Source of the DNA: an uncultured Chloroflexia bacterium
Lineage (GTDB): Bacteria; Chloroflexota; Anaerolineae; B4-G1; SLSP01
Assembly: GCA_963751345.1 (NCBI GenBank)
Contig: CAVVUS010000030.1
Location: 1 to 64,000, forward strand
DNA: 64,000 nt
Reading direction: 5' to 3'
The notes beneath the pieces are model-generated. The model was not told the DNA's origin, did not search any database, and worked only from the letters and a program-made list of their open reading frames with translations. Shown here one piece after another: positions 34,930 through 50,552 of this stretch. The translations under genes and the position numbers were made by a program. Each line of letters opens with the position of its first letter. The stretch's first letter is position 1.

Positions 34930-35583
34930 ATGGATGTTGATCTGATCACCGTGCGCGAGCCACAAAGCGCGGCAGCAGAGGCTTATCGCGCCCTGCGGAT
35001 GAACCTCGCCTTTACCAGCTTGGATCATGAGCTGCAGACCTTGGTGGTAGCGTCGCCGGCAGCAAATGACACCGATCACAAGGTCGCCGGGAACCTCGCC
35101 GTGGTCATCGCGCAGTCCGGAAAGCACGTGTGCCTCGTCGACGCCGACCTCCGCCGGCCGAGTCTCCACGCCCTCTTTGGCATCTCTCAGGAACCTGGGG
35201 TGACTACCTTTATGTTGAGCCGTGAGGAGCGTCCAACCGTCACGTGCGTCGAGACAAACGTGCCCGGACTCTCTTTGCTGCCATCAGGCGCCCTGCCCCC
35301 GAATCCGGCAGATATCCTGGGCTCCAACAAAATGAGCCTGCTACTGGATCAGCTCAAGGCAAGCGTCGATGTTGTGGTATTGCAGGCACCGCCGGTGACC
35401 GTCGCCGTGGACGCTTCGGTGCTGGCAGCCCTGACCGACGGGCTGCTTCTGGTCGTACGGACAGGGCACACGCGGCGGGATCGGGTAGAGCAGGCCAAAG
35501 AGCTGCTGGATCGCTTCAGGGTGCGCATCCTGGGTGCGGTCCTGACCGACGCACCGGAGCGGGGGCTGCTGACGGGATACTAA
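34930..35583 (+). CDS. CpsD/CapB-family BY-kinase homolog with degenerate Walker A/B
   Basis: EAYRALRMNL, LVDADLRRP, LPPNPADIL; Walker A reads SPAANDTDHK and Walker B reads LQAPP. Confidence 0.85.
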   Translation: MDVDLITVREPQSAAAEAYRALRMNLAFTSLDHELQTLVVASPAANDTDHKVAGNLAVVIAQSGKHVCLVDADLRRPSLHALFGISQEPGVTTFMLSREERPTVTCVETNVPGLSLLPSGALPPNPADILGSNKMSLLLDQLKASVDVVVLQAPPVTVAVDASVLAALTDGLLLVVRTGHTRRDRVEQAKELLDRFRVRILGAVLTDAPERGLLTGY

Positions 35584-35603
35584 ATGCGGCTTCGCGGTTA
35601 CGG

Positions 35604-36722
35604 CTACTCCGTGGGCTCCTGTGTTTCATAGGCATAGACGTCAAACGCAGCCTCGAACGGCGTCCCTGCGATCTCCAGTGTCACCGTATACGCGCCCGGT
35701 GCCAGAAATGGGTTATCGGGCTGACCGGTGAGGCTATCCCAGACGACACCTTCCGATGCTCCCTGCCAGGCGCCGCTCGCCTCACGGATGAGGGCACCCT
35801 CATGCCACCAGGCACTGCGCCACACGGTGCCGGGCACCAGGTTCCGGCACGTACTGCCCGCATAGACCACCTGGGTATACCAGTCAAAGAGCGTCAAAGG
35901 CAGGAAGGGTTCCCCCTCTGACGTCACACCGGCAGCCGTGAACAAAGGCTCGCAGGAGACAATCTCGGGTGTCGGGGTCCGCGTCGGCGCCGGCGTCGCG
36001 GCAGCAGGATCAAGTTGGATGGCGAAGTCCAGTACCCGCGTGACCTCGCCCATCAGGGTCATCTCCGCCTCGTAACTTCCCACCTCAAAGAGACGTTCAT
36101 CGCCAAGATAGCAGGCCATCGCGCCCGTCCCACCGAGTGTGTCCAGAACACCGCTCGTGTTGCAGACTGTCGCGCCTGCACGATCGCGGACGGTCACCCA
36201 GTACGGCGCACCGAGGCACCCTCCCTCATACGCATACCCGACGTAGAAAAGCTCGGTATTCGGATCGAGGCGGGAGACGGCCTCCCCATCCGGCACCCTG
36301 CGAACCGCGAGATCGGTGATCGCAGGCGACTGTGGGCTGACGGAGAGATCAAGCTGGCCCAGGTCAACCTCCTGCCAGGCCAGGTCGAGGGTATAGGATC
36401 CGGAGGGCAGGGGGCGACCGTCAGGGAAGGCAACGATGAACGTCCCGTCGCGAAGCACCCAGGTCCCTTCGCCAACTAACTGCCCCGCGGCACCGGTCAA
36501 TCTCCAGGTTGCAGGCGACTCGGCCGGCCAATTCTCCGATGTCTGGACGCGAACTCTGATTTGGGTCGCGCTGCCGCAGACCACGTCAGGAGCGTCTACC
36601 AGTTGCACATCGGGGACGCGAGGTGCGATAGCCGTTGGCGCGGGAGCACGCGAGCAGGCCGCCCAGGTCAAGGCCAGGATGCCTACAAAGGCACGCTGCC
36701 AACCGGCGCGTCGGGTGTCCAT
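35604..36722 (-). CDS. Hypothetical lipoprotein with repeated beta-rich (Ig-like) domains
   Basis: Signal peptide ending WAAC; repeated GxYxxxL motifs; PTPT linker. Confidence 0.7.
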   Translation of the reverse strand: MDTRRAGWQRAFVGILALTWAACSRAPAPTAIAPRVPDVQLVDAPDVVCGSATQIRVRVQTSENWPAESPATWRLTGAAGQLVGEGTWVLRDGTFIVAFPDGRPLPSGSYTLDLAWQEVDLGQLDLSVSPQSPAITDLAVRRVPDGEAVSRLDPNTELFYVGYAYEGGCLGAPYWVTVRDRAGATVCNTSGVLDTLGGTGAMACYLGDERLFEVGSYEAEMTLMGEVTRVLDFAIQLDPAAATPAPTRTPTPEIVSCEPLFTAAGVTSEGEPFLPLTLFDWYTQVVYAGSTCRNLVPGTVWRSAWWHEGALIREASGAWQGASEGVVWDSLTGQPDNPFLAPGAYTVTLEIAGTPFEAAFDVYAYETQEPTE

Positions 36723-37141
36723 TCGACAAGCTCCTTAATCATGCTCTCGGCGTATTCACGCCAATGTGGATGATCACCTTCCACCAGATACGCGCGGAAG
36801 TCGGTGAGCGCTTCCTCATACTCTCGCAACTGTTGGTGAGCGATCCCCCGATTGAACCTGGCCTCACTCAGGCCCGGATCCAGTTCGAACGCCCGGGTCA
36901 GGTCAAGAATGGCGCGGCGCGGGTGATCCACTTCCCGCCAATAGAGGATACCCCGCTCCATATAAGCACGGGCGAAATCCGGCTTGTAGCTGATGGCGCG
37001 GGTAAAGGCATCGATGGCCTTCTCATACTCCGTTAGCAGCCCATACTTGTTGCCGAAGTGCCGGTAGCTGCCGGCAAGCCTATAGTGGAATTGTGCCAGG
37101 ATCAGCGCAAACAACTTCCGAATGATCGTCATTTTCCTCAC
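36683..37141 (-). CDS. Tetratricopeptide repeat protein
   Basis: AIDAFTRAISYKP, AYMERG, AFELDP, ARFNRG TPR pattern. Confidence 0.82.
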   Translation of the reverse strand: MRKMTIIRKLFALILAQFHYRLAGSYRHFGNKYGLLTEYEKAIDAFTRAISYKPDFARAYMERGILYWREVDHPRRAILDLTRAFELDPGLSEARFNRGIAHQQLREYEEALTDFRAYLVEGDHPHWREYAESMIKELVEWTPDAPVGSVPL

Positions 37142-38247
37142 ACCGGTGCCAGAACCGACCGATAGGTCGCCAACGTCGATCGAGCAATCTCTGTCTGGGT
37201 ATAGTGACTCAGCACCCGCTCGCGTCCTTGCCGCCCAAGGTTCCGGCGGAGTTCGGGCTGATGGATGACCTCATCGAGGACGCGGCTCAACGCGACGGCA
37301 TCCGCCTCAGGGAACACGCGTCCGGCGTCCCCAATCACGTGTGGGATTTCGCCCGTGTCGGATCCGATGACCGCGACCTCACACGCCATCGCCTCGATCA
37401 GGACGCGCCCGAATTGCTCGGTCCAGTTCGTGCGACTCAGCGAGGGAAGCACCAGGACGTCCGTCTCGCCATAGAAACGTGGCATCGCGGCTGACGGCAG
37501 CCACGCCCGGAAGGACACGCGATCCTCCAATCCCAGGGCCGTCACCTGCTCATGGAGGGCGCCGGCGAGCGGGCCACTGCCCAGAAGGGTCGCACGCCAT
37601 CTGCCAGGCGTGCGAGCCAATGCGTTCAGCAGGACATCGATGCCTTTCTCAGGGACGAACCGACCTACATAGGCGATGTGGACGGGTGCGCCAACTCGCG
37701 GTCCAAGCGGGGGGAGGAAGTCGTCCGGGTCAACGCCAAATTGGGGGACGACCGACAGCGGGCCGGCATAGCCCTTGTCCCGCCAGACCCGGGCAGATGT
37801 ATGGCTGCCAACGATGGCGTGGTCGATCCGGGTGAGATTATAGCGCTCGAGCCAGGAGAAGGGTGGTGGGTAGCGGCGTGCCAGGTTCTGCCAGGAGAAC
37901 CAGAGGGTCCGGGCACCGGACCGGCGAGCAAGGACGTTCGCATGATAGGTAGCGAAATTGTAAGGTTCCTCGTCAATGTGCACCAGATCGGGTTGCACAC
38001 GACGGATGAGACGGTTAAGGCCCGGATAGAAGTGCAGGTGGAAAGAGCCATTGAAAAGGATGGGCAGCACCTCGAGTCGATATCCATGCGTATGGGACCG
38101 TTCCAGCCGCGTGGTTCCCCGTTCGTCCCGCCACGCTGGCGGCACGACGACGGTTAGTGAAAGGTCGGGAGACGCCTTCGCCATGGCCTCCAGCTTTTTC
38201 TGATATGCGCCGACGATACACGCCTTGGATACCATTACGACGCGCAA
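37138..38247 (-). CDS. Glycosyltransferase family 4
   Basis: YVGRFVPEKG, EQFGRVLIEAMAC, GSDTGEIP. Confidence 0.92.
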   Translation of the reverse strand: MRVVMVSKACIVGAYQKKLEAMAKASPDLSLTVVVPPAWRDERGTTRLERSHTHGYRLEVLPILFNGSFHLHFYPGLNRLIRRVQPDLVHIDEEPYNFATYHANVLARRSGARTLWFSWQNLARRYPPPFSWLERYNLTRIDHAIVGSHTSARVWRDKGYAGPLSVVPQFGVDPDDFLPPLGPRVGAPVHIAYVGRFVPEKGIDVLLNALARTPGRWRATLLGSGPLAGALHEQVTALGLEDRVSFRAWLPSAAMPRFYGETDVLVLPSLSRTNWTEQFGRVLIEAMACEVAVIGSDTGEIPHVIGDAGRVFPEADAVALSRVLDEVIHQPELRRNLGRQGRERVLSHYTQTEIARSTLATYRSVLAPV

Positions 38248-38344: not shown

Positions 38345-38373
38345 TTTACACGGTTCTCAAACCGTGCTATACT
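38345..38373 (+). promoter_or_regulatory. Promoter of the 38.5-46.4 kb operon with an overlapping 7-4-7 palindrome (candidate operator)
   Basis: TTTACA-N17-TATACT with TGn; CACGGTT-ctca-AACCGTG at 38349-38366. Confidence 0.6.
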
Positions 38374-38473
38374 GAGAAAGCTGTCAGATTATGCAATATC
38401 AATGTGCGGGCCTGGCACAGCCGAGCAGGGACGTGGTCTCGTGGTTCTTTCTGAGCGCAGAGCGAGGATCCCA

Positions 38474-38746
38474 GTGGAACATAATGCTTACCTCCCATCA
38501 GCCCTCGTGCTCTGGTTTGATGATCTGCGGGACCGCCAACTGGGAGACCTGGCCGGCATATTGGTCAAAGTTCTTCGGCTGTGGGGATTCGCAATCAGCC
38601 AAATCCTCTGGATGTTAACGCCCCTCGTCGGGCAGTCAAAGGTGGCTGCCATAGCAGAAGCATTGGAGGATCCCGAAGCGATGGACGTCCTCTACGCCCA
38701 CGTAGTCGAAGGACTGCCGGTGATAGGCAGGGTCGAAGGAGAATAG
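38474..38746 (+). CDS. Small hypothetical protein, first gene of the operon
   Basis: GTG after gagga; ends 1 bp before the next start. Confidence 0.6.
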   Translation: MEHNAYLPSALVLWFDDLRDRQLGDLAGILVKVLRLWGFAISQILWMLTPLVGQSKVAAIAEALEDPEAMDVLYAHVVEGLPVIGRVEGE

Positions 38747-38747
38747 C

Positions 38748-39503
38748 ATGGGCACCCAACTCGTCGCACTGGGTATGGCCTTCATCGGCACCGTTGCCCT
38801 CCTGCTCTACGGTCTCCAGCGGAATCGCCGCCAGCGCGATCGGACCATTGTCCCCGCCTTCAAAGCGTTTTCCGGCGAAGTCGGGCGCGTCGCGGAGGAA
38901 GGCGCCGTCATCCACGTGGCGTTGGGCAGCGGCGGCCTTCTCGGTGAGGACAGTATGGTCTCTGTCGCGGCCCTGCAGGGACTCAGTGGCCTGACCGAGC
39001 TCTCGGCTGCCTACGACACGCCTCCTTACATAACTACGGGGGATCCCACCCTTTACCTGCTGGCCGACAACCAGATCCGCGCGGCTTACGCCCGACTGGG
39101 AAGCATGGATCACTACAAACCCGGTTTCGTTCGCTTCGTGGCCCCTTCCCCCATTCTGTATGCTGCCGCAGCCGCCACGCTTACCGGCGACGAGCCGGTG
39201 GGTACCAACATCAACCTTGGCAGCTTCGGACAGGAAGTCAGCCTTCTGTCGCACGCCGCGTCCGTCAGCAACGTCAAGATGTACGGCGGCGTCACGTCAG
39301 CGACTGGATCGGCGGCTCTCTATCCCGAACTCGACGACACCCATCTGGCCATCGGCGAGGAGATGTTTGCAGGTGGGGCTGAGGTCACGGGCCGGTCGAT
39401 GTTCTGGGCCGGACTGTGGAGCCAGGATTTCCTGCGGTGGCTGATTGTCGTGGGTATCGTGGTCGCGGCAGCCGCCGCCCTGCTGGGGATCGGAGGCCTA
39501 TGA
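38748..39503 (+). CDS. Membrane protein with N- and C-terminal TM flanking an alpha/beta domain (resembles DUF6754)
   Basis: VGRVAEEGAVIHVALGSGG, LAIGEEMFAGGA, QDFLRWLIV; family assignment from recognition, not from a search. Confidence 0.65.
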   Translation: MGTQLVALGMAFIGTVALLLYGLQRNRRQRDRTIVPAFKAFSGEVGRVAEEGAVIHVALGSGGLLGEDSMVSVAALQGLSGLTELSAAYDTPPYITTGDPTLYLLADNQIRAAYARLGSMDHYKPGFVRFVAPSPILYAAAAATLTGDEPVGTNINLGSFGQEVSLLSHAASVSNVKMYGGVTSATGSAALYPELDDTHLAIGEEMFAGGAEVTGRSMFWAGLWSQDFLRWLIVVGIVVAAAAALLGIGGL

Positions 39504-40118
39504 TGCTCAGATGGTTCATCCCCACCGTCGTGGCCGTCGTCGTCGGCCTCGTAACACTGCTCGGTTTCCTGCTGCCGGTCTCGGCTTTTGAATCCTTGCG
39601 CGTCATCCTGGTCCGAGGGGCTACGGTCCTGGCCGCGTTCGCGTTCGTCCTGGCCTATGGCAACTTGCTCCGCGTGCACGCCGCACGCGTTCTGAAAAGA
39701 CAGGCCAAGCATCTGATTCCGAGCCTCATATTGATCGTTTCAGCGGTGGTGAGTCTTGTCCTGGTCCTTGTGCAGGGGCAGGATGGCCCGGCGGTGCGCT
39801 ATCTCGTGCAGGCCGATACTCGTCCCCGGAGAGTCCGCGCTGCTGGCGCTTACTGCCGTGACCCTGCTATTAGCAGGCATGCGACTCTATCGAAGTCGGC
39901 GCCACGTCAACAGCGTGCTCTTCATCGTAGTTGCGCTTCTCACGTTACTCAGTGCAGCCCCTTTGATCTATCCCCCACTTGTGAAAACCGTGATGGATTT
40001 CGTCAATGCGGTGGCTACCGGCGGCTTGCGTGGTCTGCTCCTTGGCGTAGCACTTGGGACGGTCGTCACGGGTCTGCGCGTGATCCTGGGTATCGATCGA
40101 CCGCAGAGCGGCGGATAA
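39500..40118 (+). CDS. Small polytopic membrane protein; frameshift near 39812
   Basis: ATGA overlap; two hydrophobic ORFs join; C-terminal RGLLLGVALG...LRVILGIDRP. Confidence 0.75.
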
Positions 40119-40138
40119 GATAGGCCTGGATAGAGATC

Positions 40139-42530
40139 ATGATTCGTTGTACATCGTGCGGCACACTCAATCAGGATAACCGGAAGGCATGTAGGAACTG
40201 CGGTAGCGTCCTTCCCCAGACGAGGTTGCGCTGTCCAAAATGCGGCACGCTCAATCCCGTCGGCAACCTCTTCTGCGACAACTGCAACACGAGGCTTGTC
40301 CACCCTGAGGATGCCCTTCCCCCTGAACACCCCAGCACGCCTGAGGACGATCGCAGCAGTGCTGCTGTCAAGGGGATTTCATTGCCGACACGTTCGGCCC
40401 CATCGGAGGGGAGTGAGGAATCACCCATCGGATTGCCTGACTGGCTCTCAGGTCTCATCGATGAAGACGCGGAGTTCGGGACGACGAATGCCGAAGCCGA
40501 ATCGGATGAAGATCTCCCTCTCGGTCCAGATGTGCTTCCCGATTGGCTGAAGAGCGAAGAGGGTGAAGAGCCGGAAACCGCAGAAGAAGGCGAGCCGGCG
40601 GCTCAGCCACTGCCCGACTGGTTGGCAGCGATGTCTGGAGAGACGGGCGGCATCGACGAGCCGGAGGAAGATGAGACCGAGCTCCCCGATTGGTTCGCTC
40701 AAATGGCCGCTTCGGTGTCGCCTGAAGAACCGGCGTCTTCAGAGAACCAGAACCTCGAAGAGACGGAATCCGATGAGGAGACCGAAACTGACACAGGGGA
40801 GGCGGACTCTGAGCTCCCGGACTGGCTCCTCGACATATCGGATGAGGATACCGACCAGACGGAGCTGCCTCAATGGCTCACGGATCTGACTGAAGAAGCT
40901 TCACCGGAAATTACCGCGGAGCCTGAGCAGGTCCCGGAACTCGCCGCAGACGAGGTCGAGGAAGAAGAGAGAGCAGAAAAGCCCTCAGAGCCGGTCCAGT
41001 CCGAGCCGGAGTTGGTACCTGATTGGCTCGCAGGGCTCGACCTCACCCTCTCTTCAGAACCCCAGGCTGGACATCTTCTCAGATGAAACCGCAGATACTG
41101 AGGAGGCGGAGTCTGAGACGGTGGAACCGCTGCTGACCGAAGGACCCAGCTGGCTTCAAGGTCTGAGGCCCGAAGAGAGCCTCACAGAAGATAGCCGTGG
41201 CACGCCGGCCTTCCTGGAACAGGAATCTCCGGAAGAACCTGAGGAAGAGGCCGCCGAATTTGGCCTGGAAGGTCCCGAGGAGATACCCGAGTGGCTGCAG
41301 GGCTTGGACTTCACGGCACCAACCGCGGCACGCCTCGAAACACCCTCATCCCTGATGGGTGAGCTCGCCCCTGCGGAAGTGCCTTCGTGGCTCCAGGAAC
41401 TAGCTCCACCCGAGGCAGCCGGGATAAGCCCAAGAGCTCAGAGCGTAGAGTCGTTCGGCGATTTGGCGCCTGCCGACATACCTGATTGGGTCCAGGCACT
41501 GCGTCCCAAGCCGCAGGATGGCCAGGAGCCCCCGGCCGAACGGGCGGCCTTTCCCACCCCGGCTGAGCCCGAGGGACCTCTCCAGGGCATCCCTGGGGTC
41601 CTGCCCTCGCTGATTGCAGTGGATGTACCTTCCGACGCGAAGCTCTCTGTGGCCACTGCGATACCGGATTCGGTCATCGCGCAGGCCCAACTGTGGCAGC
41701 AATTGCTTGAACAGCCGCGCAGTGCGGAGCGCCCTGTCCCACAGGAACGACTGCAGATGCCGGCTAACACCCGCCTTACCCGATGGCTCGTGGCTGCCGT
41801 CCTGCTTCTCGCGACCTTCGCCGCATTCTGGCTCTTGCCTGAGGGCGTGTCCCTCTCAAAGATCCCCGGATCCGAAATCGCCCCAGGCGTGGCGCCCTTT
41901 GTCGATAGCCTCAACCAACTTCAGGCCGGGGACCGCGTCATCCTGGCCATCGAGTACACACCGGGCTATGCCGAGGAAATGGCGCAGATCGCGGCGCCGG
42001 TCCTGGACCAACTCAATGCGCTGGATGCCGAGGTCCTGGTCGTGACCACACTTCCCCAGGGCATTGGCCTCAGCTACGCGCTATCTCCGCAGCCCCGTAA
42101 TCGAGTAGCGCTGCCTGGAAGCGGCTATGTTGCGGGCAACGTCACCGGCATTGCGGAGTTCCTGGCACGACCGGAAGCGCAGGCAGCGAGCCATTTGGTG
42201 GTCCTGACGTCGGATCCGCAGCGGCTCAGATGGTGGATCGAGCAGAATATGCTTACCAGCCACCAGGGTGGCGCATCTGAATTGCCTCTGAGCGTCGGCG
42301 TGAGCGCTGCCACAGGCGCACTCGTCACACCCTATCTCCACACCCAAAACGTCACGGGGTGGATTTCCGGATTCCCACAGGCGTTGGCCTATCGCGAGCT
42401 GACCGGGATCGGAAGCAACCAGGCCTACGCCCGGATCCTCGACGTGCTTACGTTGGCACAATGGGTCGTCGTCGGGCTGCTGTTGATGGCACTTGTTTAC
42501 CACATGGTCGAGCGGAAAGGGGCGAGTTAG
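40139..42530 (+). CDS. Double zinc ribbon + acidic PxWL-repeat linker + TM-flanked alpha/beta domain; frameshift near 41066
   Basis: Four CxxC motifs; 11 PxW[LFV] repeats; TM, soluble domain (IEYTPGYAEEM), C-terminal TM. Confidence 0.8.
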
Positions 42531-42532
42531 CT

Positions 42533-43210
42533 ATGGATCTCCTTGGGCTGATCACCGGCGCCGTCCTGACCCTCGTGATCTTCAGCTATCTCCTCCGCGA
42601 TAACCAGCTCTATCGCTGGGCGCTGGCACTCCTGGTCGGTACGGCGTCCGGGTACGCGACGGGCGTCGCAGTAAGGTTTGTATTGCGCGACTGGATCGCC
42701 CAGACGCTGTCCGGACAGGATCCCGTCGTCAAGTTCGTCTACCTCATCGCGCTATTACTGGGTTGTTTCCTGTTGCTGAAAGGTTTCAAGCCGACCCGCT
42801 TCGTAGGCTTGATCATGACCATCAGCGACATTCCCCTAGGATATCTCGTGGGCGTCGGCGCTGCCGTCGCCGTCTCCGGCGCTCTGACGGGAACGCTCCT
42901 GCCCCAGATCCTGGCAACGGGCGCGGGAGTTCGGATTGATCGTGGCGTCATTGGCATCCTACAGGGCGTCGTGGTCCTCTTGAGCACGATCGTTACGCTC
43001 CTTTCCTTCTCCATCCGCTTCAACGATCGGTCCGCAGAACATCCGAGCAAGTGGGGACTCGGAGTACGGCGCACCGGTAGGGCCGTCTTGGCGGTAGCAC
43101 TGGGCACGGCTTTCTCCGGGGCAGTCACCTCTGCCCTGACCGCGATGGTTATGCGCCTGTGGCAATTGGCCGATCTTCTCAGTCGGTTGTTCAACCTGGT
43201 TGGAGGATAG
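42533..43210 (+). CDS. Polytopic membrane protein
   Basis: LTLVIFSYLLRDNQLYR, about 7 TM segments; abuts its neighbours. Confidence 0.8.
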   Translation: MDLLGLITGAVLTLVIFSYLLRDNQLYRWALALLVGTASGYATGVAVRFVLRDWIAQTLSGQDPVVKFVYLIALLLGCFLLLKGFKPTRFVGLIMTISDIPLGYLVGVGAAVAVSGALTGTLLPQILATGAGVRIDRGVIGILQGVVVLLSTIVTLLSFSIRFNDRSAEHPSKWGLGVRRTGRAVLAVALGTAFSGAVTSALTAMVMRLWQLADLLSRLFNLVGG

Positions 43211-44962
43211 GTGGCAGAGGCACAGAACATCGAATCGGTGTTGGTGGCCGACTGCGGCACAGTCATCACGAAACTGTTGCTGGTCGACCGTGTTGCCGAC
43301 GGCTATCGTTTCGTCGCGCAGGCGGAGGCCCAGACAACAGGCAAGCCGCCCTGGAACGATTTGAGCGTGGGGGTCACCCAGGCGGTCCAGGAGTTGGAGT
43401 CCATCACGGGGCGCAGACTGTATGAGCGCGGTCGGATTATCACACCGAGGCAGGATCTTGAGGGCGTCGACGCGTTTGTCATCACGCTCAGCTCGGTGGC
43501 CCCCTTGCGGGTTATCCTGGCAGGGCTGGTGCGGGAGATGAGCCTGGAAAGCGGCAAGCGAGCGGTAACAGGGACCTATGCATCCGTGGAGGCCATTCTC
43601 TCCCGCGAGGGAAATCTCCGTTCCCCACAGGAGGCATGGGCACGCACGGTCCGGGATCTCATGCCCGATGTGGTGATGCTGGTCGGCGGTGTCGATGGCG
43701 GTGCCCGCCGCCCGGTACTCGAACTCGCCGAGGCCATCGCGCTGGCGACGTCGATGTTGGAGGAAGACCTTCGGCCCATCGTCCTCTATGCAGGCAACAG
43801 TGCTCTGCGCTCGAACGTCTCCCGGCTGTTGAGCGACATCACCCGAGTCGTGATCGCGGACAACGTGCATCCGACCGCCGGCACCGAGCACCTGGGGCCG
43901 GCACAGGGTGCGCTTGAGGAGATCTATAACGAGGAGCGGCTCAGGAAGGCGCCGGGAATGGAGAGCCTGAGCGCATGGAGCCGCCTGCCCTTCTTGCCCG
44001 TCGCCACGACATTTTCTCGTGTCGTGGATTTCCTGTGGCATCGTGAGGGAAACGTGGACCGGGGGGTCTTGGGCGTCGATATAGGTGCGGCGACGACAAC
44101 GATGGCCGTCAACTTCGAGGGCCGCCCGTACGTCACAGTATACGAGCACGGCGTCGCCCACGGCCTCGTGGACTGGGCCGAGGACCACGGGACGGACCGT
44201 CTGATGCAATGGATTCCCGAGGGTTTGGACGAAGACACCTTGATGGCAATGCTCTACAATGCCGAGCTCCATCCCACGACCATCCCGCAGACTTCGCTGG
44301 AGTTGTGGGTAGAACTCGCAATAGCGCGAGAGATGCTGAGGGCAACCTACGACATCGCGCGCCCGACCTGGGATATCAGCGGCTCGGAGTTCAGTGAGAG
44401 CGAGGCTATGCCGCGGGTGGATCCGATCCTGATATCGGGTGGCGGTATTGTCCGCACACCACGACCGGGTCTGGCGCTGCTGGCGATCCTCGACGGTCTG
44501 CAGCCGGTCGGCATCTCGACCGTGCTATTGGACGTGAACCGTGCAGCGCCGGCCATTGGGGCGATTGCGGGCGTGAAACCCCTGATTGCCGCCTCCGCCC
44601 TGGATGCCGGGACGCTCGTCTCTCTGGGCACGGTGATCTCACCGGTGGGCCAGGCGCGGCCCGGTGATGTCGTGATGCGGGTGCACATCACGTACGACAA
44701 CGGAAGCGAATTGGACGTGGAGGCGCACTACGGCGAACTTGAGATCTGGCCGCTCGCGGCCGACCAACGTGCTACGCTCGAAGTCAGGCTCCACCGGCGT
44801 TTCGACATTGGTATGGGACCAGGGCAGGGCGGAAGGATAGAGGTGCTTGGCGGACGGGTAGGGCTCGTCGTCGATGCTCGGGGGCGCCCGATCACGCTGC
44901 CGAGGAACACGGACCAACGGCGTCGAGTGCTCAAACGCTGGCTTTGGGACGTTGGAGGCTGA
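43211..44962 (+). CDS. GlmL/MutL (glutamate mutase L)-like actin-fold (ASKHA) ATPase
   Basis: Phosphate-1 VADCGTVITK, PDVVMLVGGVDGG, LYAGN, phosphate-2 GVDIGAATT, adenosine ISGGG, C-terminal GLVVDARGRP. Confidence 0.8.
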   Translation: MAEAQNIESVLVADCGTVITKLLLVDRVADGYRFVAQAEAQTTGKPPWNDLSVGVTQAVQELESITGRRLYERGRIITPRQDLEGVDAFVITLSSVAPLRVILAGLVREMSLESGKRAVTGTYASVEAILSREGNLRSPQEAWARTVRDLMPDVVMLVGGVDGGARRPVLELAEAIALATSMLEEDLRPIVLYAGNSALRSNVSRLLSDITRVVIADNVHPTAGTEHLGPAQGALEEIYNEERLRKAPGMESLSAWSRLPFLPVATTFSRVVDFLWHREGNVDRGVLGVDIGAATTTMAVNFEGRPYVTVYEHGVAHGLVDWAEDHGTDRLMQWIPEGLDEDTLMAMLYNAELHPTTIPQTSLELWVELAIAREMLRATYDIARPTWDISGSEFSESEAMPRVDPILISGGGIVRTPRPGLALLAILDGLQPVGISTVLLDVNRAAPAIGAIAGVKPLIAASALDAGTLVSLGTVISPVGQARPGDVVMRVHITYDNGSELDVEAHYGELEIWPLAADQRATLEVRLHRRFDIGMGPGQGGRIEVLGGRVGLVVDARGRPITLPRNTDQRRRVLKRWLWDVGG

Positions 44963-44963
44963 T

Positions 44964-46016
44964 ATGTATACGCCCTATGCCATAGCCAATCCACTGACGA
45001 CGGTGCGCATCCCAAGACTCCTCCCTCAATCGGGTGAAGTCCTGGTGAGGTCGGGCGATTCGGTCGAGCCCACTCAGATCGTAGCCCAGGCCGTCAAGCC
45101 CCCTGATTTCCGCATCGTGGAGTTCGCGCAGGAACTCGACGTCCTGAGCAAGAACGCCAATGCCTATCTGAAGGTGAAGCGCGGACAAGCCATTTCGGAG
45201 GGCGACATCCTCGCCACGAGGGGAGGGTTGAGCGATCGAGCCTGTCGCGCGCCCATCAGCGGAAAGATCATCGGGGTTGGGCGCGGCAGGCTGCTGCTGG
45301 AGGCGGAACCGCAAGTTTTGCGGCTCAACGCATTGGTACCGGGCTACGTCATCGAGGTACGGGCCGGAGAAGGGGCGGTGATCGAGACGGTAGGTGGGCT
45401 GATTGAGGCGGCCTGGGGCAACGGACAGGAAGCCTACGGCCTGCTCCGGATGGTCGTCCGGGACCTCAGCCATCCGATCCGGGCCACTCACATCAACGCA
45501 TCGTCGCAGGGCGCTATCCTGGTAGGCGGATCCACCGTTGAGGAGGAGTGCATCGCGCAGGCTGCGGAAGTGCAAGTTCGGGGTATGATCGTCGGAAGCA
45601 TTCCGACATCCCTCATCCCGAAGGTAAGACAGGCGAACTTCCCCATCGTAGCTACCGAGGGGATAGGGACCGCGCCGATGACCCGGCTGGTATTCGATCT
45701 GCTGCACTCATTGGATGGTCGGGAGGCAGCGCTGAGCGGGGACATCGGGAGCCGTTGGCACGAGAAGCGCCCTTTTGTGCTTGTCCCTATGCCCACGCAG
45801 GCAGCACGCCCTATCGATGTCAATGCGCCCGTGGCGACCGGCCATCGCATCCGTGTCCTCAGGGGAGATTACAGGGGACGCTCCGGCACGATCTCACAAC
45901 TGCTCGTCAAGCTGATTGTCCTGGAGACGGGGGCGCGGCTGCCCGGTGTCTTGGTCACCCTCGACGACGGCGAACAGGTGCAAATCCCTTATGCGAATCT
46001 GGAACGCTTGCTCTAG
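44964..46016 (+). CDS. Hypothetical protein with barrel-sandwich hybrid (biotinyl/lipoyl-like) motifs and C-terminal KOW-like motif
   Basis: GEVLVRSGDSV, KVKRGQAISEGDIL, RAPISGKI, ATEGIG, GHRIRVLRGDYRGRSGTI. Confidence 0.75.
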   Translation: MYTPYAIANPLTTVRIPRLLPQSGEVLVRSGDSVEPTQIVAQAVKPPDFRIVEFAQELDVLSKNANAYLKVKRGQAISEGDILATRGGLSDRACRAPISGKIIGVGRGRLLLEAEPQVLRLNALVPGYVIEVRAGEGAVIETVGGLIEAAWGNGQEAYGLLRMVVRDLSHPIRATHINASSQGAILVGGSTVEEECIAQAAEVQVRGMIVGSIPTSLIPKVRQANFPIVATEGIGTAPMTRLVFDLLHSLDGREAALSGDIGSRWHEKRPFVLVPMPTQAARPIDVNAPVATGHRIRVLRGDYRGRSGTISQLLVKLIVLETGARLPGVLVTLDDGEQVQIPYANLERLL

Positions 46017-46038
46017 CCAAGGAGAGGTCTGAGTCGAC

Positions 46039-46362
46039 ATGCCAATTCGCAAACTACTCCGTGAGAGCGCGTTTCATTTGGCCCGCAAGGATCTCGCGTC
46101 TTTCCTGGCCGACCATGAAGAGGACCTATTGTCCATCTTTCGTGAGGAAATGCAGATCCTCGACGATGAGATACCGGAGGAAAGCCTCTTCATCGACATC
46201 AAAATGGTGCCGCTCGGAGAGGCGATCCTGAAGGCAGCTCTCCACGCCATAACGCGCTTCCTCACCGAGGAATTCCCATCTAGCTCGACCGGCAAAGCGA
46301 AGGTGGTGATCGAGGAGCAGGAGGAAGGAAAGGGGCTTATCCTGAAAGACTCGAAATCTTGA
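46039..46362 (+). CDS. Small acidic helical hypothetical protein
   Basis: aaggagagg SD, 107-aa ORF continuing the operon. Confidence 0.7.
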   Translation: MPIRKLLRESAFHLARKDLASFLADHEEDLLSIFREEMQILDDEIPEESLFIDIKMVPLGEAILKAALHAITRFLTEEFPSSSTGKAKVVIEEQEEGKGLILKDSKS

Positions 46363-46505: not shown

Positions 46506-47144
46506 ATGTCGGATGACATTTTCGAGGCCTTTGGCGACGAGGATACGTACCAGGAAGAGGAAGCCGAGGCTCAAGTAGACCAGACTCAAGGCCAGAACCG
46601 CGTCTTTATCATCGCGGTGGCCGTCTTGGGTGGCCTCCTGGTGTGCGCCTTGATATCGTTTGGCGTCTGGGCCCTTGTCCTCAATCGGCCACAACAGGCA
46701 GCTCCGCCGCCGACTGAGGTCGCAGCTTCCCCGACCGCTGAAATGGTGGTGGAGGCGACGTCAACACCCGCGGCGCCGGAGGCCACGAATACGCCGCAAC
46801 CAACAGACACGCCGGAGCCCACATCGACACCCGTACTCGGCCCCACCGCAACACCCACAGCCGAGGGAGGCGGAGACGACCCACTGGCTGTAGGAGGGGC
46901 TGCGACGGCCACCGAGCCGGCAGAGGAAGCCACGCCCACGGCAACGCAAGAGCCCCGACGCACGCCGACGCCGACACGCACGCCAAGGGCTACCGCCACA
47001 CCGCGTGTAACCGGTGCGGGCACGAGCCTTGGCGGCAACTCGGGCCAGCTCTCGCAGACGGGTCTGGGCGAGTGGCTGTTGATCGGTGCGGCTGTCCTGC
47101 TGGTCGGGGTGATGATCACCGCGCGCAGGCTTCGCCGCACTTGA
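46506..47144 (+). CDS. Pro/Thr-rich surface protein with N-terminal TM and LPxTG-like C-terminal sorting signal
   Basis: Strong SD; acidic N-terminus, TM, PT-rich stalk, LSQTG + hydrophobic helix + RRLRRT. Confidence 0.8.
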   Translation: MSDDIFEAFGDEDTYQEEEAEAQVDQTQGQNRVFIIAVAVLGGLLVCALISFGVWALVLNRPQQAAPPPTEVAASPTAEMVVEATSTPAAPEATNTPQPTDTPEPTSTPVLGPTATPTAEGGGDDPLAVGGAATATEPAEEATPTATQEPRRTPTPTRTPRATATPRVTGAGTSLGGNSGQLSQTGLGEWLLIGAAVLLVGVMITARRLRRT

Positions 47145-47246
47145 GACTGCGCCGATCGACTGTCAAAGATACGCACGGAGCCGTAGGGCTCCGTGCTTCT
47201 TATTTGGCCGCCTTGCCGGTTTCCGCACGAACAGAGTTCGTCCAAG

Positions 47247-48477
47247 ATGAGCACCAGATGCCATAGGTTGTCACTGACCTTCTCAGCCATCGCAGTGGTT
47301 TGTGCAGCGATGGCAACCATACTGTCGGGGTGCGCCCTGCCGCTTGCACCTCAACGCCGAATTGTGACCACCAACGTCCGCGTTGGCACCAACGTCTGCG
47401 TTGGCAGCACCGGCGTCTGAGTCGGCACCGACATCTGTGGCGCCAACATCCCCGGCCACAGCCACGCCGGCTTCCAGCCCCGTGCCCACGGCTACGCCAA
47501 CCCTCGTGCCGACGCCCGATCCGGAGCTCGTGCAAGCTGCCGCCGACGAAGGACTGGTCCGCGCGCAAGCACTGGCAGGAGAGGACGAACTGGTCTGCCT
47601 GCGTTACGAGGACACCGACGCCGACGGAGCGCCGGAGTGGGTCGCCCTGGTCCACCAATCCACTGACGTAGGCGCTCGCCTCGCAGCTTACGTGCTGGAC
47701 GGCGAAGCTGTCTATGCCCTCGAACCCGCACAGCCCAAGCCCGGCGCGGCAGATGTCGGCTTCGGGCAGTACGCCACCTGTGATATTGCCATCCGAGACG
47801 TCAACGCAGATGGTATGCCGGAGCTGGCGATCTTCGGCTACGCCGAGGGGAACCAAACGCTGCTGCATCTCTTTGCCTGGGAAGGGGCCGACTCCGACGC
47901 CGGTGGCGCGTACCGGCGGTTGGGCTTCTTTTCGGGGGACGCAGGCATCAAGTTCGCGGACGCCGACGGAGATCTCGAAGAGGAAATCTGGGAAGGCTAT
48001 CGGGTCCGGGGCGCCCCAAGCCTCGCGTTTTACATCGTGTTCACGTGGGAGAACGAGACGTATGGTTGGACCTCGGAGCACTACGATTGGTATTTTGCGG
48101 ACCGACCGCAGACCTATCCCACCGGTGCGCCGGAGTTCGCCGTCGTCTCTTTTTACCTGGCGCTGAACGACCGTGACATACCCGGTGCTTACGCGCTCCT
48201 CGCCCCGTCGTCCAGGCCCGACTATGATAGCTGGGCATTGGGCTATGCTACGACGCTCCGGGTGAGCGTCGGTGGGGTGCACACGATATCAGGCTCAACG
48301 GGAGAGAACTACGCGCGGATCGCGGCTATGGTCACCGCGTGGGATAATGAGGGCGGCGTGATCACGGGACGGCTCTGGGACGTCGAGTGGGACACGATCG
48401 GCACCGACGCGGGATGGCAACTCGTGTCGTCGACGGCAGATCTGCTGGAGACGTGGCCCGTCACCTACTGGCGGTAA
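47247..48477 (+). CDS. Hypothetical lipoprotein (PT-rich linker, DxDxDG calcium-binding-like motifs); frameshift near 47368
   Basis: Lipobox LSGC in ORF 47193-47420 joins ORF 47383-48477; DTDADG, DVNADG, DADGD motifs. Confidence 0.7.
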
Positions 48478-48526
48478 TCCCCCTCCCCATCCTTCCCTGC
48501 AGGGAGAGGAAGCCCGCAGGTGGGCA

Positions 48527-49090
48527 TCACGGCGTTTCGTAGACGAAGTTGTTATCCGCCTCGCTGAGGCGCGGCTGGACCGCATCCCGGGCCGATAGCT
48601 CGGGGGCTTGAATCGGCCACTCGATCCCGATCTCGGGATCATTCCACAGAATGCCCCGCTCGTGCTCCGGCGAGTACTCGTCCGTGACCTGGTAGATCAG
48701 GTCCACAGACTCACTCAACACACAGAATCCATGGGCGAAGCCGGGCGGAACGTAGAGAAAGTGGTGGTTGTCGCCTGACAACACCTCGCCCACCCAGGCT
48801 CCGTACGTCGGCGACCCCGCCCGGATATCGACGGCGACGTCGAAGATAGCGCCGGTGACCACAGTCATCAGTTTCCCCTGGGCGCGTGGTGATTTCTGGT
48901 AGTGGAGGCCCCGTAACACTCCCCTGGCCGAACGCGAGTGATTGGCCTGGACAAAGGCGCCGGATATGCCGGCAGCCTCAAACTCCGTCCGTTTGTACGT
49001 CTCCATAAAAAAGCCCCGCGCATCACCAAATACCCGCGGCTTGATCAGTTGTACGCCAGGAATCCGGAGCGTCTCGAATGTGAAAGGCAT
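48527..49090 (-). CDS. rfbC: dTDP-4-dehydrorhamnose 3,5-epimerase
   Basis: FGDARGFFMET, GVLRGLHYQ, DVAVDIR, VPPGFAHGF, WNDPEIGIEWP. Confidence 0.95.
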   Translation of the reverse strand: MPFTFETLRIPGVQLIKPRVFGDARGFFMETYKRTEFEAAGISGAFVQANHSRSARGVLRGLHYQKSPRAQGKLMTVVTGAIFDVAVDIRAGSPTYGAWVGEVLSGDNHHFLYVPPGFAHGFCVLSESVDLIYQVTDEYSPEHERGILWNDPEIGIEWPIQAPELSARDAVQPRLSEADNNFVYETP

Positions 49091-49107
49091 AGGTATCGTC
49101 TCCTCAC

Positions 49108-49437
49108 TCAGTGGGGCCAGGCCCACACCAGGATGAGCGCGGCAACGAGCCAAGTCAGTGTGGCGCCCAAGAGAGCTAGTGTCAGGCTCACACGGTCGAC
49201 CAGGACGTAAAGCGCGCCCATGTAGGCACAATACGGCAACAGGGAGACCATGCCAAATCGGATCGTGGCCTTCAGGTCGCCCACCGTCCGTTGTGTGCCG
49301 ACGATGTAGTGCGATATCAGCGTGAACGTCGGAAACAAGGGAACCAAGCCGGCAAGATAGGACCGCTGCGACCGGGCTACAAGCTGGATGATCACGACAA
49401 CGACAGCGCCGAAGAGTGCTTTGAGCAGCAGATCCAT
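49108..49437 (-). CDS. GlpM/YdgC family membrane protein
   Basis: LLLKALFGAVVV, YLAGLVPLFPTF, HYIVG. Confidence 0.85.
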   Translation of the reverse strand: MDLLLKALFGAVVVVIIQLVARSQRSYLAGLVPLFPTFTLISHYIVGTQRTVGDLKATIRFGMVSLLPYCAYMGALYVLVDRVSLTLALLGATLTWLVAALILVWAWPH

Positions 49438-49465
49438 GGCTCGCCTTTACCTGGTCGCCGAGCAG

Positions 49466-50552
49466 CTAGCGGAGGCCCCGGTAGAATCGGGAAGCGAGTG
49501 GATAGAGCGGGTTCAGCGCGCGTTCCCACAAGCCCAGTGTAGCGCACAACCTCACCGCCGAACCCCCGCTTGAACCGGTAGACTCCCCACAGACCGTCGC
49601 TGCGCTCTGTGAATTCCGCTTCCAGCGTCTCCTCGTCGGCATCGGGTATGCCCCATAGGTCATACGTCGTGCATCCGCGCGCCCTTGCCCAACGAATTGC
49701 GGCCCATTGGACGGCATAGGCCGGCATGAGATTTCGATGCCGGTCGGATGAGGCGCCGTAGATGTACCATGACTTCTTCCCGACCGCAAAGACCATCAGC
49801 CCGGCCAGCGGTTCTCCTTCGTGCTCGGCGAGGAGCAGGGCAACCTCGCCCTCGGGTGCAAAGAGTTCGAGCGCTTTCCTGTAGTAGGCCAGCGTGTGCA
49901 CCCCGAATTCATCCCGTTCGCCGGTTACCTCCATCAGGTCGTGGTACGTCTCCACATCGGCTATCGAGCCCTCTCGGACGGTGACCCCCTTGCGCTCTGA
50001 AAGCCGGATGTTATAGCGGGTTTTTGACTTCATCGTCATCAGGATATCCTCCTCGGGAGGGGAGATATCCAATACGATGGTCCGTCGCGGCTGTATGGTG
50101 CGGACGGCTCGGCGGTAGCCGATATCCGCCAAGAAAGCTTCGGTGTGCGGCAGCGATGCAGGATGGGCTGATGCGTTGCCCACCTCGGGCTCGATCCAGC
50201 AGGCCCAAGCCCTGCGCTTGCGCGCAGCAGCATGGAGTGCCGCAAAGAGCTCGGTGGCCGCCGTGCGGTCCGACCAGTCGACGAGCGGGCCGCGTGGCAC
50301 GTAGGCCAGGGTGCCGAGACCTAACGGCAGCTTGCGATAGAGCACGATGGCCCCCGCCCTGGGAGCGTCCTTATCACCAACAGTGACCAGTTCCCAGTCC
50401 CACCCAAAGCCCGCCTTCAGCCTTCCCCATTGGGTCGTCTGGAGCAGATTACCGCAGGGGTGCGCCGCCACAAATCGGTTCCACGATTCGAAGCGGACAC
50501 CCTCCGTCGTCGTCCCCAGCCGACCCACAAAAGCCATAGCCGACCTATCCAC
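49466..50552 (-). CDS. FemAB/FemX family peptidoglycan bridge aminoacyltransferase; frameshift near 49525
   Basis: LLQTTQWGRLK, YVPRGP, KSKTRYNIR, YIYGAS, YDLWGI, GVYRFKRGFGG. Confidence 0.9.

What the first reader, a model, noticed from the sequence alone, without database searches (positions are those of the whole stretch)
38345..46362. Uncharacterised 8-gene membrane operon built around an orphan GlmL-like actin-fold ATPase
Seen: eight same-strand genes with gaps of roughly 0-20 bp or overlaps. In order: a small protein, a DUF6754-like 2-TM protein, a small polytopic protein, a Zn-ribbon/PxWL-repeat/2-TM protein, a ~7-TM protein, a GlmL-like ASKHA ATPase (DCGTVITK, DIGAATT, SGGG), a barrel-sandwich-hybrid/KOW protein and a small acidic protein. 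Known: GlmL/MutL proteins are assigned as reactivating factors of B12-dependent mutases, but no mutase gene is in this window. Inference: this is a dedicated ATP-driven envelope machine (transporter, secretion/assembly platform or cytoskeleton-like membrane complex). I recall similar gene strings in other anaerobes (Cloacimonadota, Bathyarchaeia) with no assigned function; this recollection needs verifying.
Basis: partly seen in the sequence, partly recalled or inferred. Interest (0 to 1): 0.85.

Follow-up and report, generated by a model that had tools for sequence, protein, structure and literature searches.

The report
Actin-fold ATPase membrane operon, Chloroflexota
This is a real, deeply conserved operon of filamentous Chloroflexota that joins an actin-like ATPase, wrongly labelled a vitamin-B12 enzyme helper, to a set of membrane proteins that match no studied machine.

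Summary
Eight co-directional, tightly packed genes lie at 38.35-46.36 kb, and a ninth (g10) probably belongs to the same unit. Two genes look split in the window, but each split is a 1-base error or strain variant: relatives and short-read contigs have them whole. The order g1-g2(DUF6754)-g3-g4/5-g6-g7 is kept in 13 of 20 loci from diverse Chloroflexota families and in 20 of 20 metagenome loci with enough upstream DNA. g8 follows g7 in 79 of 80 metagenome loci. The ATPase g7 (PF13941) is not a glutamate mutase helper: GlmE is missing from this genome and from 219 of 224 g7-positive genomes.

New here:
- g8 is a barrel-sandwich domain, then a PTS-Enzyme-I-like swivelling domain without a conserved His, then KOW.
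- The acidic arm of g4/5 carries 10 to about 49 copies of [DE][LVI]PxWL[RQ], which resembles the FtsZ C-terminal peptide that FtsA binds.

Best reading: an ATP-dependent membrane machine whose ATPase is tethered by these motifs. This scan noted the same system earlier on other DNA. No paper was found.

The parts
38345..38373 (+). promoter-like site TTTACA-17-TATACT with TG before the -10
   Evidence: 10 of 12 matches. It is a consensus match only, not shown to be active.
38402..38746 (+). g1: small protein. About 85 aa are conserved, with a hydrophobic helical hairpin. The start codon is uncertain.
   Evidence: The profile finds it upstream of g2 in 18 ORFs of the window and 27 loci (L002-L028). 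No Pfam family.
38748..39503 (+). g2: TM, then the DUF6754 domain, then TM. The domain is probably cytoplasmic, because basic residues follow TM1.
   Evidence: PF20539, E 5.4e-18; invariant E50, G60, G158, L166, G203, E204, D227, R230, G247; single copy in 92 of 401 Chloroflexota genomes.
39500..40118 (+). g3: membrane protein of about 205 aa with 6 TM. In the window it is split by one extra base near 39813-39816.
   Evidence: Invariant H59, S74, P108, R176, G177, G181, G185, R192. No Pfam or PDB relative.
40139..42530 (+). g4/5, one gene. It has an N-terminal double zinc ribbon and an acidic disordered arm with 10-11 PxWL motifs. Then come TM, a conserved outside domain with a WIEQ motif, and a second TM. 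In the window it is split by one extra base near 41067-41069.
42533..43210 (+). g6: membrane protein of about 225 aa, 6 TM in most relatives (5 counted in the window's copy), with conserved D23, N24, R28 and a GTLxPQ motif
   Evidence: No detectable kinship to g3 (hhalign probability 0.6%). No PDB relative.
43211..44962 (+). g7: actin-fold (ASKHA) ATPase of family PF13941. It has an inserted flavodoxin-like domain (about residues 96-250) and an extra C-terminal beta domain (about 470-583) that carries an invariant DARGRP motif.
   Evidence: model pLDDT 90.4; fold searches.
44964..46016 (+). g8: cytoplasmic partner made of a barrel-sandwich hybrid domain, a swivelling beta/beta/alpha domain (144-279) and a KOW domain (287-350)
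   Evidence: pLDDT 88.7; fold searches.
46039..46362 (+). g9: small acidic protein, found only in close relatives
   Evidence: In one search it was found in the window and L002-L006 only. In one search it was found in 6 of the 80 metagenome loci.
46506..47144 (+). g10: acidic N-terminus, TM, Pro/Thr-rich linker, then LSQTG followed by a TM and a basic tail, which looks like a sortase-type wall-sorting signal. It probably belongs to the same transcript.
   Evidence: weak LAXTG_small_WW, 17.2 bits against a cut-off of 65; it follows g8 or g9 in most loci; no terminator-like site before it and a strong one after it.
47173..47196 (+). terminator-like hairpin with a 10-bp stem (8 GC pairs) followed by a T-rich tail

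Best explanation
What is shown. The unit g1-g10 encodes the Chloroflexota form of an unstudied machine with two parts. One part is a cytoplasmic-membrane complex made of the g1 hairpin, g2 (DUF6754), g3 (6 TM), the TM-ectodomain-TM core of g4/5, and g6 (about 6 TM). The other part is a cytoplasmic pair: g7, an actin-fold ATPase, and g8, a protein of three domains (barrel-sandwich, swivelling, KOW).

What is inferred. g7 binds and hydrolyses ATP, since its nucleotide motifs are intact. It works on the cytoplasmic face of the membrane complex, with g8 as its adaptor. The ATP-driven movement or ATP-dependent oligomerisation of g7 drives or gates passage of an unknown, probably envelope-related, substrate through the polytopic subunits g3 and g6.

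The Chloroflexota-specific addition is the cytoplasmic arm of g4/5: a zinc ribbon followed by 10 to about 49 copies of [DE][LVI]PxWL[RQ]. I propose that these motifs tether several copies of g7 to the complex, in the way that the FtsZ C-terminal peptide is bound by the actin-fold protein FtsA.

g7 is not a reactivase of glutamate mutase.
For: Conserved unit:
- g2-g3-g4/5-g6-g7 is kept in order in 13 of 20 loci taken from diverse Chloroflexota families.
- The same order holds in 20 of 20 metagenome loci with at least 6400 nt upstream of g7.
- g6 lies upstream in 58 of 60 metagenome loci with at least 597 nt upstream.
- g8 lies directly downstream of g7 in 79 of 80 loci; the 80th has only 86 nt downstream.
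- DUF6754 is single-copy in 92 of 401 genomes, and 88 of these 92 also have g7.
- Where g8 is not adjacent, it is still in the genome, in 5 of 5 genomes checked.
- An ESM Atlas cluster with PF13941 on 98% of members aligns with the whole of a g8 relative. This is a lead for a g7-g8 fusion.

ATPase: the ASKHA motifs are kept in 19-21 of 21 sequences, and the model is confident (pLDDT 90.4).

Not a mutase helper:
- NCBIfam GlmL scores 91.8 bits against a cut-off of 475.
- GlmE was not found in the own genome.
- GlmE is over its cut-off in only 8 of 401 genomes. None of the 8 is among the 92 DUF6754 genomes.

Tether idea:
- 318 PxWL motifs occur in 28 g4/5-like proteins, spaced 16-55 residues apart.
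- In the own genome, clusters of 3 or more motifs occur only in g4/5 and in one TPR protein.
- The FtsZ of this genome ends in IEIPAFLRRRG, and the FtsZ of 5 other Chloroflexota genomes end in D[LI]D[IV]P[APT]FLR.
- FtsA binds the FtsZ C-terminal peptide and uses a C-terminal amphipathic helix to bind the membrane (PMC5832921, passages read).
- In five families g7 carries a disordered tail that ends in a basic-aromatic peptide such as KRRGWFGKKK. In reduced forms the zinc-ribbon/PxWL protein has no TM but ends the same way.
Against: - No binding, ATPase activity, transport or expression was tested.
- Foldseek ranks hydantoinase-type enzymes above FtsA: N-methylhydantoinase 9h03_A (E 2.6e-11), then acetone and acetophenone carboxylase subunits, with FtsA at ranks 6-9. 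All are generic actin-fold matches with low TM-scores.
- The likeness of PxWL to the FtsZ tail was seen post hoc. The pattern that covers both was written after seeing both, so one search gives no statistics. The motifs differ in F against W and in the charge that follows.
- The window's own g7 has no C-terminal membrane tail.
- The membrane subunits match no known transporter fold or family, so 'transport' rests on architecture alone.
- The multi-phylum and archaeal range, and the docking of the ATPase on the DUF6754 subunit, come from earlier unchecked scan notes.
Confidence: 0.35

Rival explanations
1. A cytoskeleton-like or division-linked scaffold rather than a transporter. In this reading g7 polymerises on the membrane like FtsA, MreB or PilM. 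The PxWL arms of g4/5 and of the TPR protein compete with or mimic the FtsZ tail. They link the complex to FtsA/FtsZ, so that it acts in septation or wall growth of the multicellular filaments.
For: - FtsA is the top VIA-align match of g7, and PilM and MreB are also listed.
- PxWL resembles the FtsZ tails.
- The genome has FtsA next to FtsZ, and no SepF was found.
- Basic-aromatic tails resemble membrane-targeting helices.
- The neighbours are envelope genes: GT4, FemAB, rmlC, and a wall-sorted g10.
- In four genomes g8 lies beside a receiver-domain protein.
Against: - Relatives of g8 occur in other phyla: Eisenbacteria by name, and Planctomycetota, Fidelibacterota and Cloacimonadota as ESM Atlas clusters. 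Earlier unchecked notes place the system in non-filamentous lineages and in archaea.
- Four conserved membrane subunits with polar residues in their helices are more than an anchor needs.
- No polymer interface was tested.
Confidence: 0.2
2. An enzyme-coupled system. In this reading g7 acts like its hydantoinase-A and acetone carboxylase relatives, as an ATP-dependent kinase or activase on a small or lipid-linked substrate that the membrane complex handles. g8 is a mobile carrier-like arm.
For: - The top Foldseek hits of g7 are N-methylhydantoinase, acetone carboxylase, acetophenone carboxylase and caprolactamase.
Against: - g8 has no invariant His, Cys, Lys or Asp. Its invariant positions are A84, G127, G154, G159 and G233, so a covalent carrier role is unlikely.
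- No hydantoinase-B-like catalytic partner is in the unit.
Confidence: 0.12
3. A signalling or regulatory membrane complex. In this reading the outside domain of g4/5 senses something, and the zinc ribbon with its arm and g7/g8 relay it. No transport is involved.
For: - The outside domain of g4/5 is conserved.
- g4/5 has a cytoplasmic zinc ribbon.
- A receiver-domain protein lies next to the unlinked g8 in 4 of 4 loci.
Against: - No kinase, cyclase or DNA-binding output domain is in the unit.
- Two polytopic subunits are kept with conserved intramembrane polar residues.
Confidence: 0.08
4. g7 is what databases call it: GlmL, the accessory or reactivating protein of a B12-dependent mutase. Its membrane neighbours would then be incidental.
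For: - g7 matches PF13941.
- Sources name relatives 'glutamate mutase L'.
- The genome has a methylmalonyl-CoA mutase gene on another contig.
Against: - g7 scores far below the GlmL, Or-4 and TIGR01319 cut-offs.
- It has an extra conserved C-terminal domain.
- GlmE is not found in the genome.
- GlmE is over its cut-off in 8 of 401 genomes and in none of the 92 DUF6754 genomes.
- Linkage to the membrane genes is conserved across the phylum.
Confidence: 0.03

Closest known systems
GlmL/MutL accessory protein of glutamate (methylaspartate) mutase, and the Or-4 relative (Pfam PF13941; NCBIfam NF040745, NF040744, TIGR01319)
   Same: Same Pfam family (4e-63), with the actin-fold core and its nucleotide motifs.
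   Different: - Scores of 61-92 bits fall far below cut-offs of 204-600.
- It is about 120 residues longer, with a conserved C-terminal domain carrying an invariant DARGRP motif.
- No mutase genes are nearby, and GlmE was not found in the genome.
- It is always linked to membrane genes and to g8.
FtsA tethering FtsZ through the FtsZ conserved C-terminal peptide
   Same: - An actin-fold protein at the membrane.
- The neighbouring protein carries motifs like the FtsZ tails of the same phylum, D-[LIV]-P-x-[FW]-L-[RQ].
- Some lineages have basic-aromatic C-terminal tails like a membrane-targeting helix.
   Different: - g7 has no Pfam FtsA or SHS2 match, and the genome has its own FtsA.
- The motif has W where FtsZ has F. 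It is followed by acidic rather than basic residues, and it comes in arrays of 10 to about 49.
- Binding is untested.
Hydantoinase A-type ATPases (N-methylhydantoinase, acetone and acetophenone carboxylase, caprolactamase)
   Same: They are the best Foldseek matches of g7 (E 2.6e-11 to 1e-8). By my recollection, Pfam describes PF13941 as related to this branch.
   Different: - TM-scores are low (0.17-0.35).
- No hydantoinase-B-type partner is present.
- The context is a membrane complex.
Swivelling phosphohistidine domain of PEP-utilising enzymes (PTS Enzyme I, PPDK, rifampin phosphotransferase)
   Different: No conserved His at or near the carrier position, and no invariant polar residue at all.
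Pfam DUF6754 (PF20539) and its four-gene membrane cassette, which is catalogued but uncharacterised
   Same: g2 is a member. It sits with two polytopic proteins and a second TM-domain-TM protein in a fixed order.
   Different: In Chloroflexota the second TM-domain-TM subunit has gained the zinc ribbon and the PxWL arm, and the small g1, g9 and the wall-sorted g10 are added. Reduced forms keep only the zinc-ribbon/PxWL protein, g7 and g8.

Membership tests
GlmL (methylaspartate mutase accessory protein, NF040745 equivalog) | Whole-protein score over the curated cut-off | tested here: not met
   91.8 bits against 475. Or-4 scores 88.2 against 600, and TIGR01319 scores 60.6 against 204.
GlmL (methylaspartate mutase accessory protein, NF040745 equivalog) | Encoded with glmS/glmE, or at least in a genome that has glutamate mutase | tested here: not met
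   PF06368 was not found in the own genome, which is 93% complete. It is over its cut-off in 8 of 401 Chloroflexota genomes, and 219 of the 224 g7-positive genomes lack it.
Pfam MutL (PF13941) | Domain match over the gathering score | tested here: met
   214.2 bits against 27, covering residues 10-464.
ASKHA (actin/Hsp70/sugar kinase) ATPases | Phosphate-1, phosphate-2 and adenosine motifs, and the two-lobed fold | tested here: met
   motifs kept in 19-21 of 21 sequences; the model matches FtsA, PilM, Hsp70, sugar kinases and DdrA.
FtsA | Sequence family match (Pfam FtsA or SHS2_FTSA) | tested here: not met
   One search gives only PF13941 for g7. The genome's FtsA is elsewhere, on C20.
FtsA | Binds an FtsZ-type C-terminal peptide, and has a C-terminal membrane-targeting helix | not testable with these tools
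Tails of the right kind exist in some lineages but not in the window's g7.
DUF6754 membrane cassette | PF20539 protein followed by polytopic and TM-domain-TM partners in a fixed order | tested here: met
PEP-utiliser / PTS phosphocarrier domain | Conserved phospho-accepting His on the swivelling domain | tested here: not met
   [not shown]
Rnf/Nqr complex | RnfA/E- or NqrD/E-type polytopic subunits, and an RnfC/NqrA subunit | tested here: not met
   [not shown]

The most novel reading that the evidence does not exclude
A new class of membrane machine powered by an actin-fold ATPase rather than by a P-loop, P-type or rotary ATPase. In Chloroflexota the ATPase would be gathered on the complex by a long arm of FtsZ-tail-like motifs, as a multivalent version of the FtsA-FtsZ contact. 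The same motif on a conserved TPR protein would tie the machine to a wider cytoplasmic network.
Probability: 0.25. Interest if true: 0.9.

Novelty: categorically new. Interest (0 to 1): 0.74.

Why it matters
No known transporter, secretion system or envelope assembly machine uses an actin-fold ATPase as its cytoplasmic engine.

This unit is widespread:
- g7 is kept in 224 of 401 sampled Chloroflexota genomes.
- The g8 family has 3915 clusters at 50% identity.
- Relatives of g8 occur in at least one other phylum.

Its ATPase is routinely mis-annotated as 'glutamate mutase L', which sends metabolic reconstructions astray.

The motif arm gives a concrete, cheap test: peptide binding to g7, g8 or FtsA. 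That test could connect the machine to cell division or wall growth in multicellular filamentous bacteria.

Tried and rejected
A stored homologue was used instead.
- Complex prediction (g7 with a 60-residue PxWL segment) was not available. No binding claim was tested.
- No RNA holder was listed for the stretch.
- The search for homologous proteins with the g8 alignment and lengths 'longer' found no fused forms. The tool itself calls this weak evidence.
- g3 against g6, and g2 against the g4/5 core, show no detectable kinship (hhalign probabilities 0.6% and 0.9%).
- Profiles of g3, g6, g2, the g4/5 core and g7 have no meaningful PDB sequence relative.
- The Rnf/Nqr-like idea (two 6-TM proteins plus a barrel-sandwich protein) was dropped, because only a generic fold is shared.
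- The phosphocarrier idea for g8 was dropped, because there is no conserved His.
- The C-terminal domain of g7 (470-583) was not identified.
The g7 alignment was used instead.
- Paper searches found nothing on this system. 'DUF6754', 'PF13941' and 'GlmL'+'ASKHA' each returned 0 papers. The 'glutamate mutase L/GlmL/MutL' search listed 13 papers, judged from titles and the starts of abstracts as shown in the listing; 12 are unrelated and one (PMC4682846) concerns mesaconase of the methylaspartate pathway, not this operon. The 'ASKHA/membrane complex/uncharacterized/operon' search showed 15 of 233 papers, none relevant by the same listing.
- The generalised motif count uses a pattern written after seeing both motifs. 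It is not evidence.
Full report
**The observation.** One search lists ten + strand ORFs between 38336 and 46362. Two pairs of them are halves of single genes. The g3 pieces and the g4 and g5 pieces lie in different frames in the window. They lie in one frame in all five long relatives fetched from public genomes, L002-L006, whose g7 is 73-95% identical. A DNA alignment to L002 puts one extra base in the window near 39816 and one near 41068. Short-read contigs of four soil metagenome runs that hold 95-99% identical DNA leave out exactly one base at 39813 (runs X1 and X7) and at 41067 or 41069 (runs X2 and X4). The methylmalonyl-CoA mutase gene of the same assembly, on contig C27, is also spread over three adjoining frames.

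With the likely true starts, the gaps between genes run from -4 to 22 nt. A promoter-like site (10 of 12 matches) lies at 38345-38373. The only strong terminator-like hairpin lies at 47173-47196, after g10. So g10 probably belongs to the unit. These are consensus matches only.

**Family assignments.**
- g2 is DUF6754 (E 5.4e-18).
- g4/5 starts with a double zinc ribbon.
- g7 is PF13941 MutL (4e-63), but it scores 61-92 bits against NCBIfam cut-offs of 204-600 for GlmL, Or-4 and TIGR01319.
- g8 has only sub-threshold barrel-sandwich matches.
- g1, g3, g6 and g9 match nothing.
- g10 has an acidic head, a TM, a Pro/Thr linker and an LSQTG-TM-basic tail.

**Conservation.** The genome is a 5.4-Mb, 49-contig, 93%-complete assembly. 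Record titles of its nearest relatives name Anaerolineae and Chloroflexia MAGs.

g7 was found in 224 of 401 sampled Chloroflexota genomes, in 190 of 322 high-quality ones, and in 99 of 218 genera. Most matches are full length and include the roughly 120-residue C-terminal extension. Several families had no match (for example 0 of 17, 0 of 12, 0 of 12 and 0 of 9). These tallies, and those, include one unpublished genome, G038.

I fetched 20 kb around g7 in 20 genomes of different families. I then searched them with BLAST and with profiles iterated from the close relatives.
- Thirteen of the 20 loci have g2-g3-g4/5-g6-g7 in order, and 12 of those 13 also have g1 (L019 lacks it).
- Eight of the 13 have g8 directly behind g7.
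- In the other five, g7 is 690-770 aa long and g8 is not adjacent. A profile search of five such genomes found g8 elsewhere in all five.
- The remaining seven loci have g7, six of them with g8. Five of the seven have an upstream zinc-ribbon/PxWL protein but no g2, g3 or g6. One of these, L028, is cut by its contig end.

An independent sample came from metagenome contigs found through the g7 motif G[LV][VI][VI]DARGRP. At least 595 stretches matched, 566 encode relatives, and the best 80 were kept. In that sample:
- g8 follows g7 in 79 of 80 loci. The 80th has only 86 nt downstream.
- g6 precedes g7 in 58 of 60 loci with at least 597 nt upstream.
- g2-g3-g4/5-g6-g7 is present in 20 of 20 loci with at least 6400 nt upstream.

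DUF6754 is single-copy in 92 of 401 genomes and in none of 14 control genomes. By my reading of the two tables, 88 of the 92 also have g7.

**Not a mutase helper.** GlmE (PF06368) was not found in the own genome. It is over its cut-off in 8 of 401 genomes. None of the 8 is a DUF6754 genome, and only 5 of the 8 have any g7 hit. Three of those five hits are weak (E 1e-9 to 1e-14), as expected for true GlmL; the other two are strong (G394, 1.4e-44; G281, 6.8e-83, where the GlmE match is only a 113-aa fragment). The 23 window ORFs that I scanned, of 44 outside the operon, hold no B12 enzyme.

**g7.** The 21-sequence alignment keeps the actin-fold nucleotide motifs and, most strictly of all, D555-A-R557-G-R559-P560 in the C-terminal domain. 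The model is confident (pLDDT 90.4, pTM 0.89).
- Foldseek ranks N-methylhydantoinase, acetone carboxylase and acetophenone carboxylase first, then FtsA, DnaK and PilM. Diol dehydratase reactivase comes at rank 31.
- No PDB chain matches the g7 profile by sequence.

**g8.** The model (pLDDT 88.7) has three parts.

No His or other polar residue is invariant in 18 sequences, so a phosphocarrier role is unlikely.

The g8 family has 3915 clusters at 50% identity with E up to 0.001, and 1331 with E up to 1e-30. Of ten clusters looked up, two carried organism names: Ardenticatena maritima and a Candidatus Eisenbacteria MAG. ESM Atlas look-alikes of the Ardenticatena protein are commonest in Chloroflexota, Planctomycetota and Fidelibacterota. 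One 876-aa cluster, commonest in Cloacimonadota, carries PF13941 on 98% of members and aligns with the whole protein (TM 0.83). This is a lead for a g7-g8 fusion.

**The membrane proteins.**
- g2 has basic residues right after TM1, so its domain should be cytoplasmic.
- The g4/5 core has basic residues before TM1 and after TM2, so its conserved domain should be outside.
- g3 and g6 keep polar residues in or next to their helices: H59, R176, R192 and D198 in g3; D23, N24, R28 and PQ in g6.
- None has a detectable relative in PDB or a detectable kinship to another subunit.

**The motif arm.** The cytoplasmic part of g4/5 is acidic and disordered, and it repeats [DE]-[LVI]-P-[DAS]-W-L-[RQ]. There are 318 instances in 28 proteins, 10-11 in the window's gene and up to 49 elsewhere, spaced 16-55 residues apart. 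The last motif before TM1 is fixed in position.

In the own genome, clusters of three or more motifs occur only in g4/5 and in one TPR protein on contig C14. The N-terminal part of that TPR protein has relatives in 5 of 5 other genomes. PxWL motifs were seen in 2 of the 5 partial sequences that I held.

The FtsZ of this genome ends in ...DNIEIPAFLRRRG. The FtsZ of five other Chloroflexota genomes end in D[LI]D[IV]P[APT]FLR.... FtsA binds this peptide and holds the membrane by a C-terminal amphipathic helix (PMC5832921, three passages read).

Three things therefore point the same way:
- An FtsZ-tail-like motif array sits on the protein encoded next to it.
- Basic-aromatic C-terminal tails occur on g7 in five families and on the TM-less zinc-ribbon/PxWL proteins of reduced forms.

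This is an inference from resemblance. I saw the likeness after the fact, and I could not test binding.

**Verdict.** The unit is real, old and under selection. It is not what its database name says. No paper in the library describes it.

This scan has noted the same system before on other DNA: 87 notes with DUF6754 and 28 with GlmL. Those notes report a multi-phylum and archaeal range, and a predicted docking of the ATPase on the DUF6754 subunit. I did not test either.

I commit to an ATP-dependent membrane machine with a motif-tethered actin-fold ATPase, at confidence 0.35. The main rival is a division- or wall-linked scaffold.

Noticed in passing
L029:7377-9815 (-), which is G000:C14:199379-201838: A second protein of this genome carries the same motif array: N-terminal TPR repeats followed by an acidic arm with 7 PxWL motifs and further LAWLxSL motifs. 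An overlapping 442-aa ORF with C-terminal TPRs (L029:6458-7786) may be its frameshifted continuation. The N-terminal part has relatives in 5 of 5 other Chloroflexota genomes, in open frames of 1054-1805 aa.
   Followed up: partly
L030:6695-7885 (-), L031:5319-6284 (-), L032:10723-12042 (+), L033:6822-7937 (-): In four genomes where g8 is unlinked from g7, a conserved receiver-domain protein (Response_reg, E 1e-8 to 6e-11) lies next to g8 or within about 2 kb of it, on the same strand. One of the four also has a weak Roadblock-like (MAPKK1_Int) match.
   Followed up: partly
L018, L019, L021, L022, L023 (C-terminal 100-200 residues of g7): g7 of these families has a disordered tail that ends in a conserved basic-aromatic peptide (such as KRRGWFGKKK or KKRGFFRRK). 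The L022 tail also holds PxWL motifs. Zinc-ribbon/PxWL proteins without a TM (L016, L017, L020) end in similar peptides.
   Followed up: partly
[not shown]
   Followed up: no
G000:C27:41892-43441 (outside the window): The methylmalonyl-CoA mutase gene of this assembly is spread over three adjoining frames. This suggests frequent single-base indel errors in the assembly.
   Followed up: no
window 38419 and 38424: One short-read contig (run X7) leaves out one base at each of these two places, inside the ORF extension upstream of the conserved part of g1. So the 5' end of g1 as assembled is doubtful.
   Followed up: no
window 34930-38247 and 47383-50552: Synteny with close relatives runs beyond the operon. 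Upstream lie a ParA/BY-kinase-like P-loop protein, a 372-aa protein, a TPR protein and a GT4 glycosyltransferase. Downstream lie a 364-aa protein, rmlC and a FemAB-family gene. This is an envelope-flavoured neighbourhood, kept in L002-L006.
   Followed up: partly
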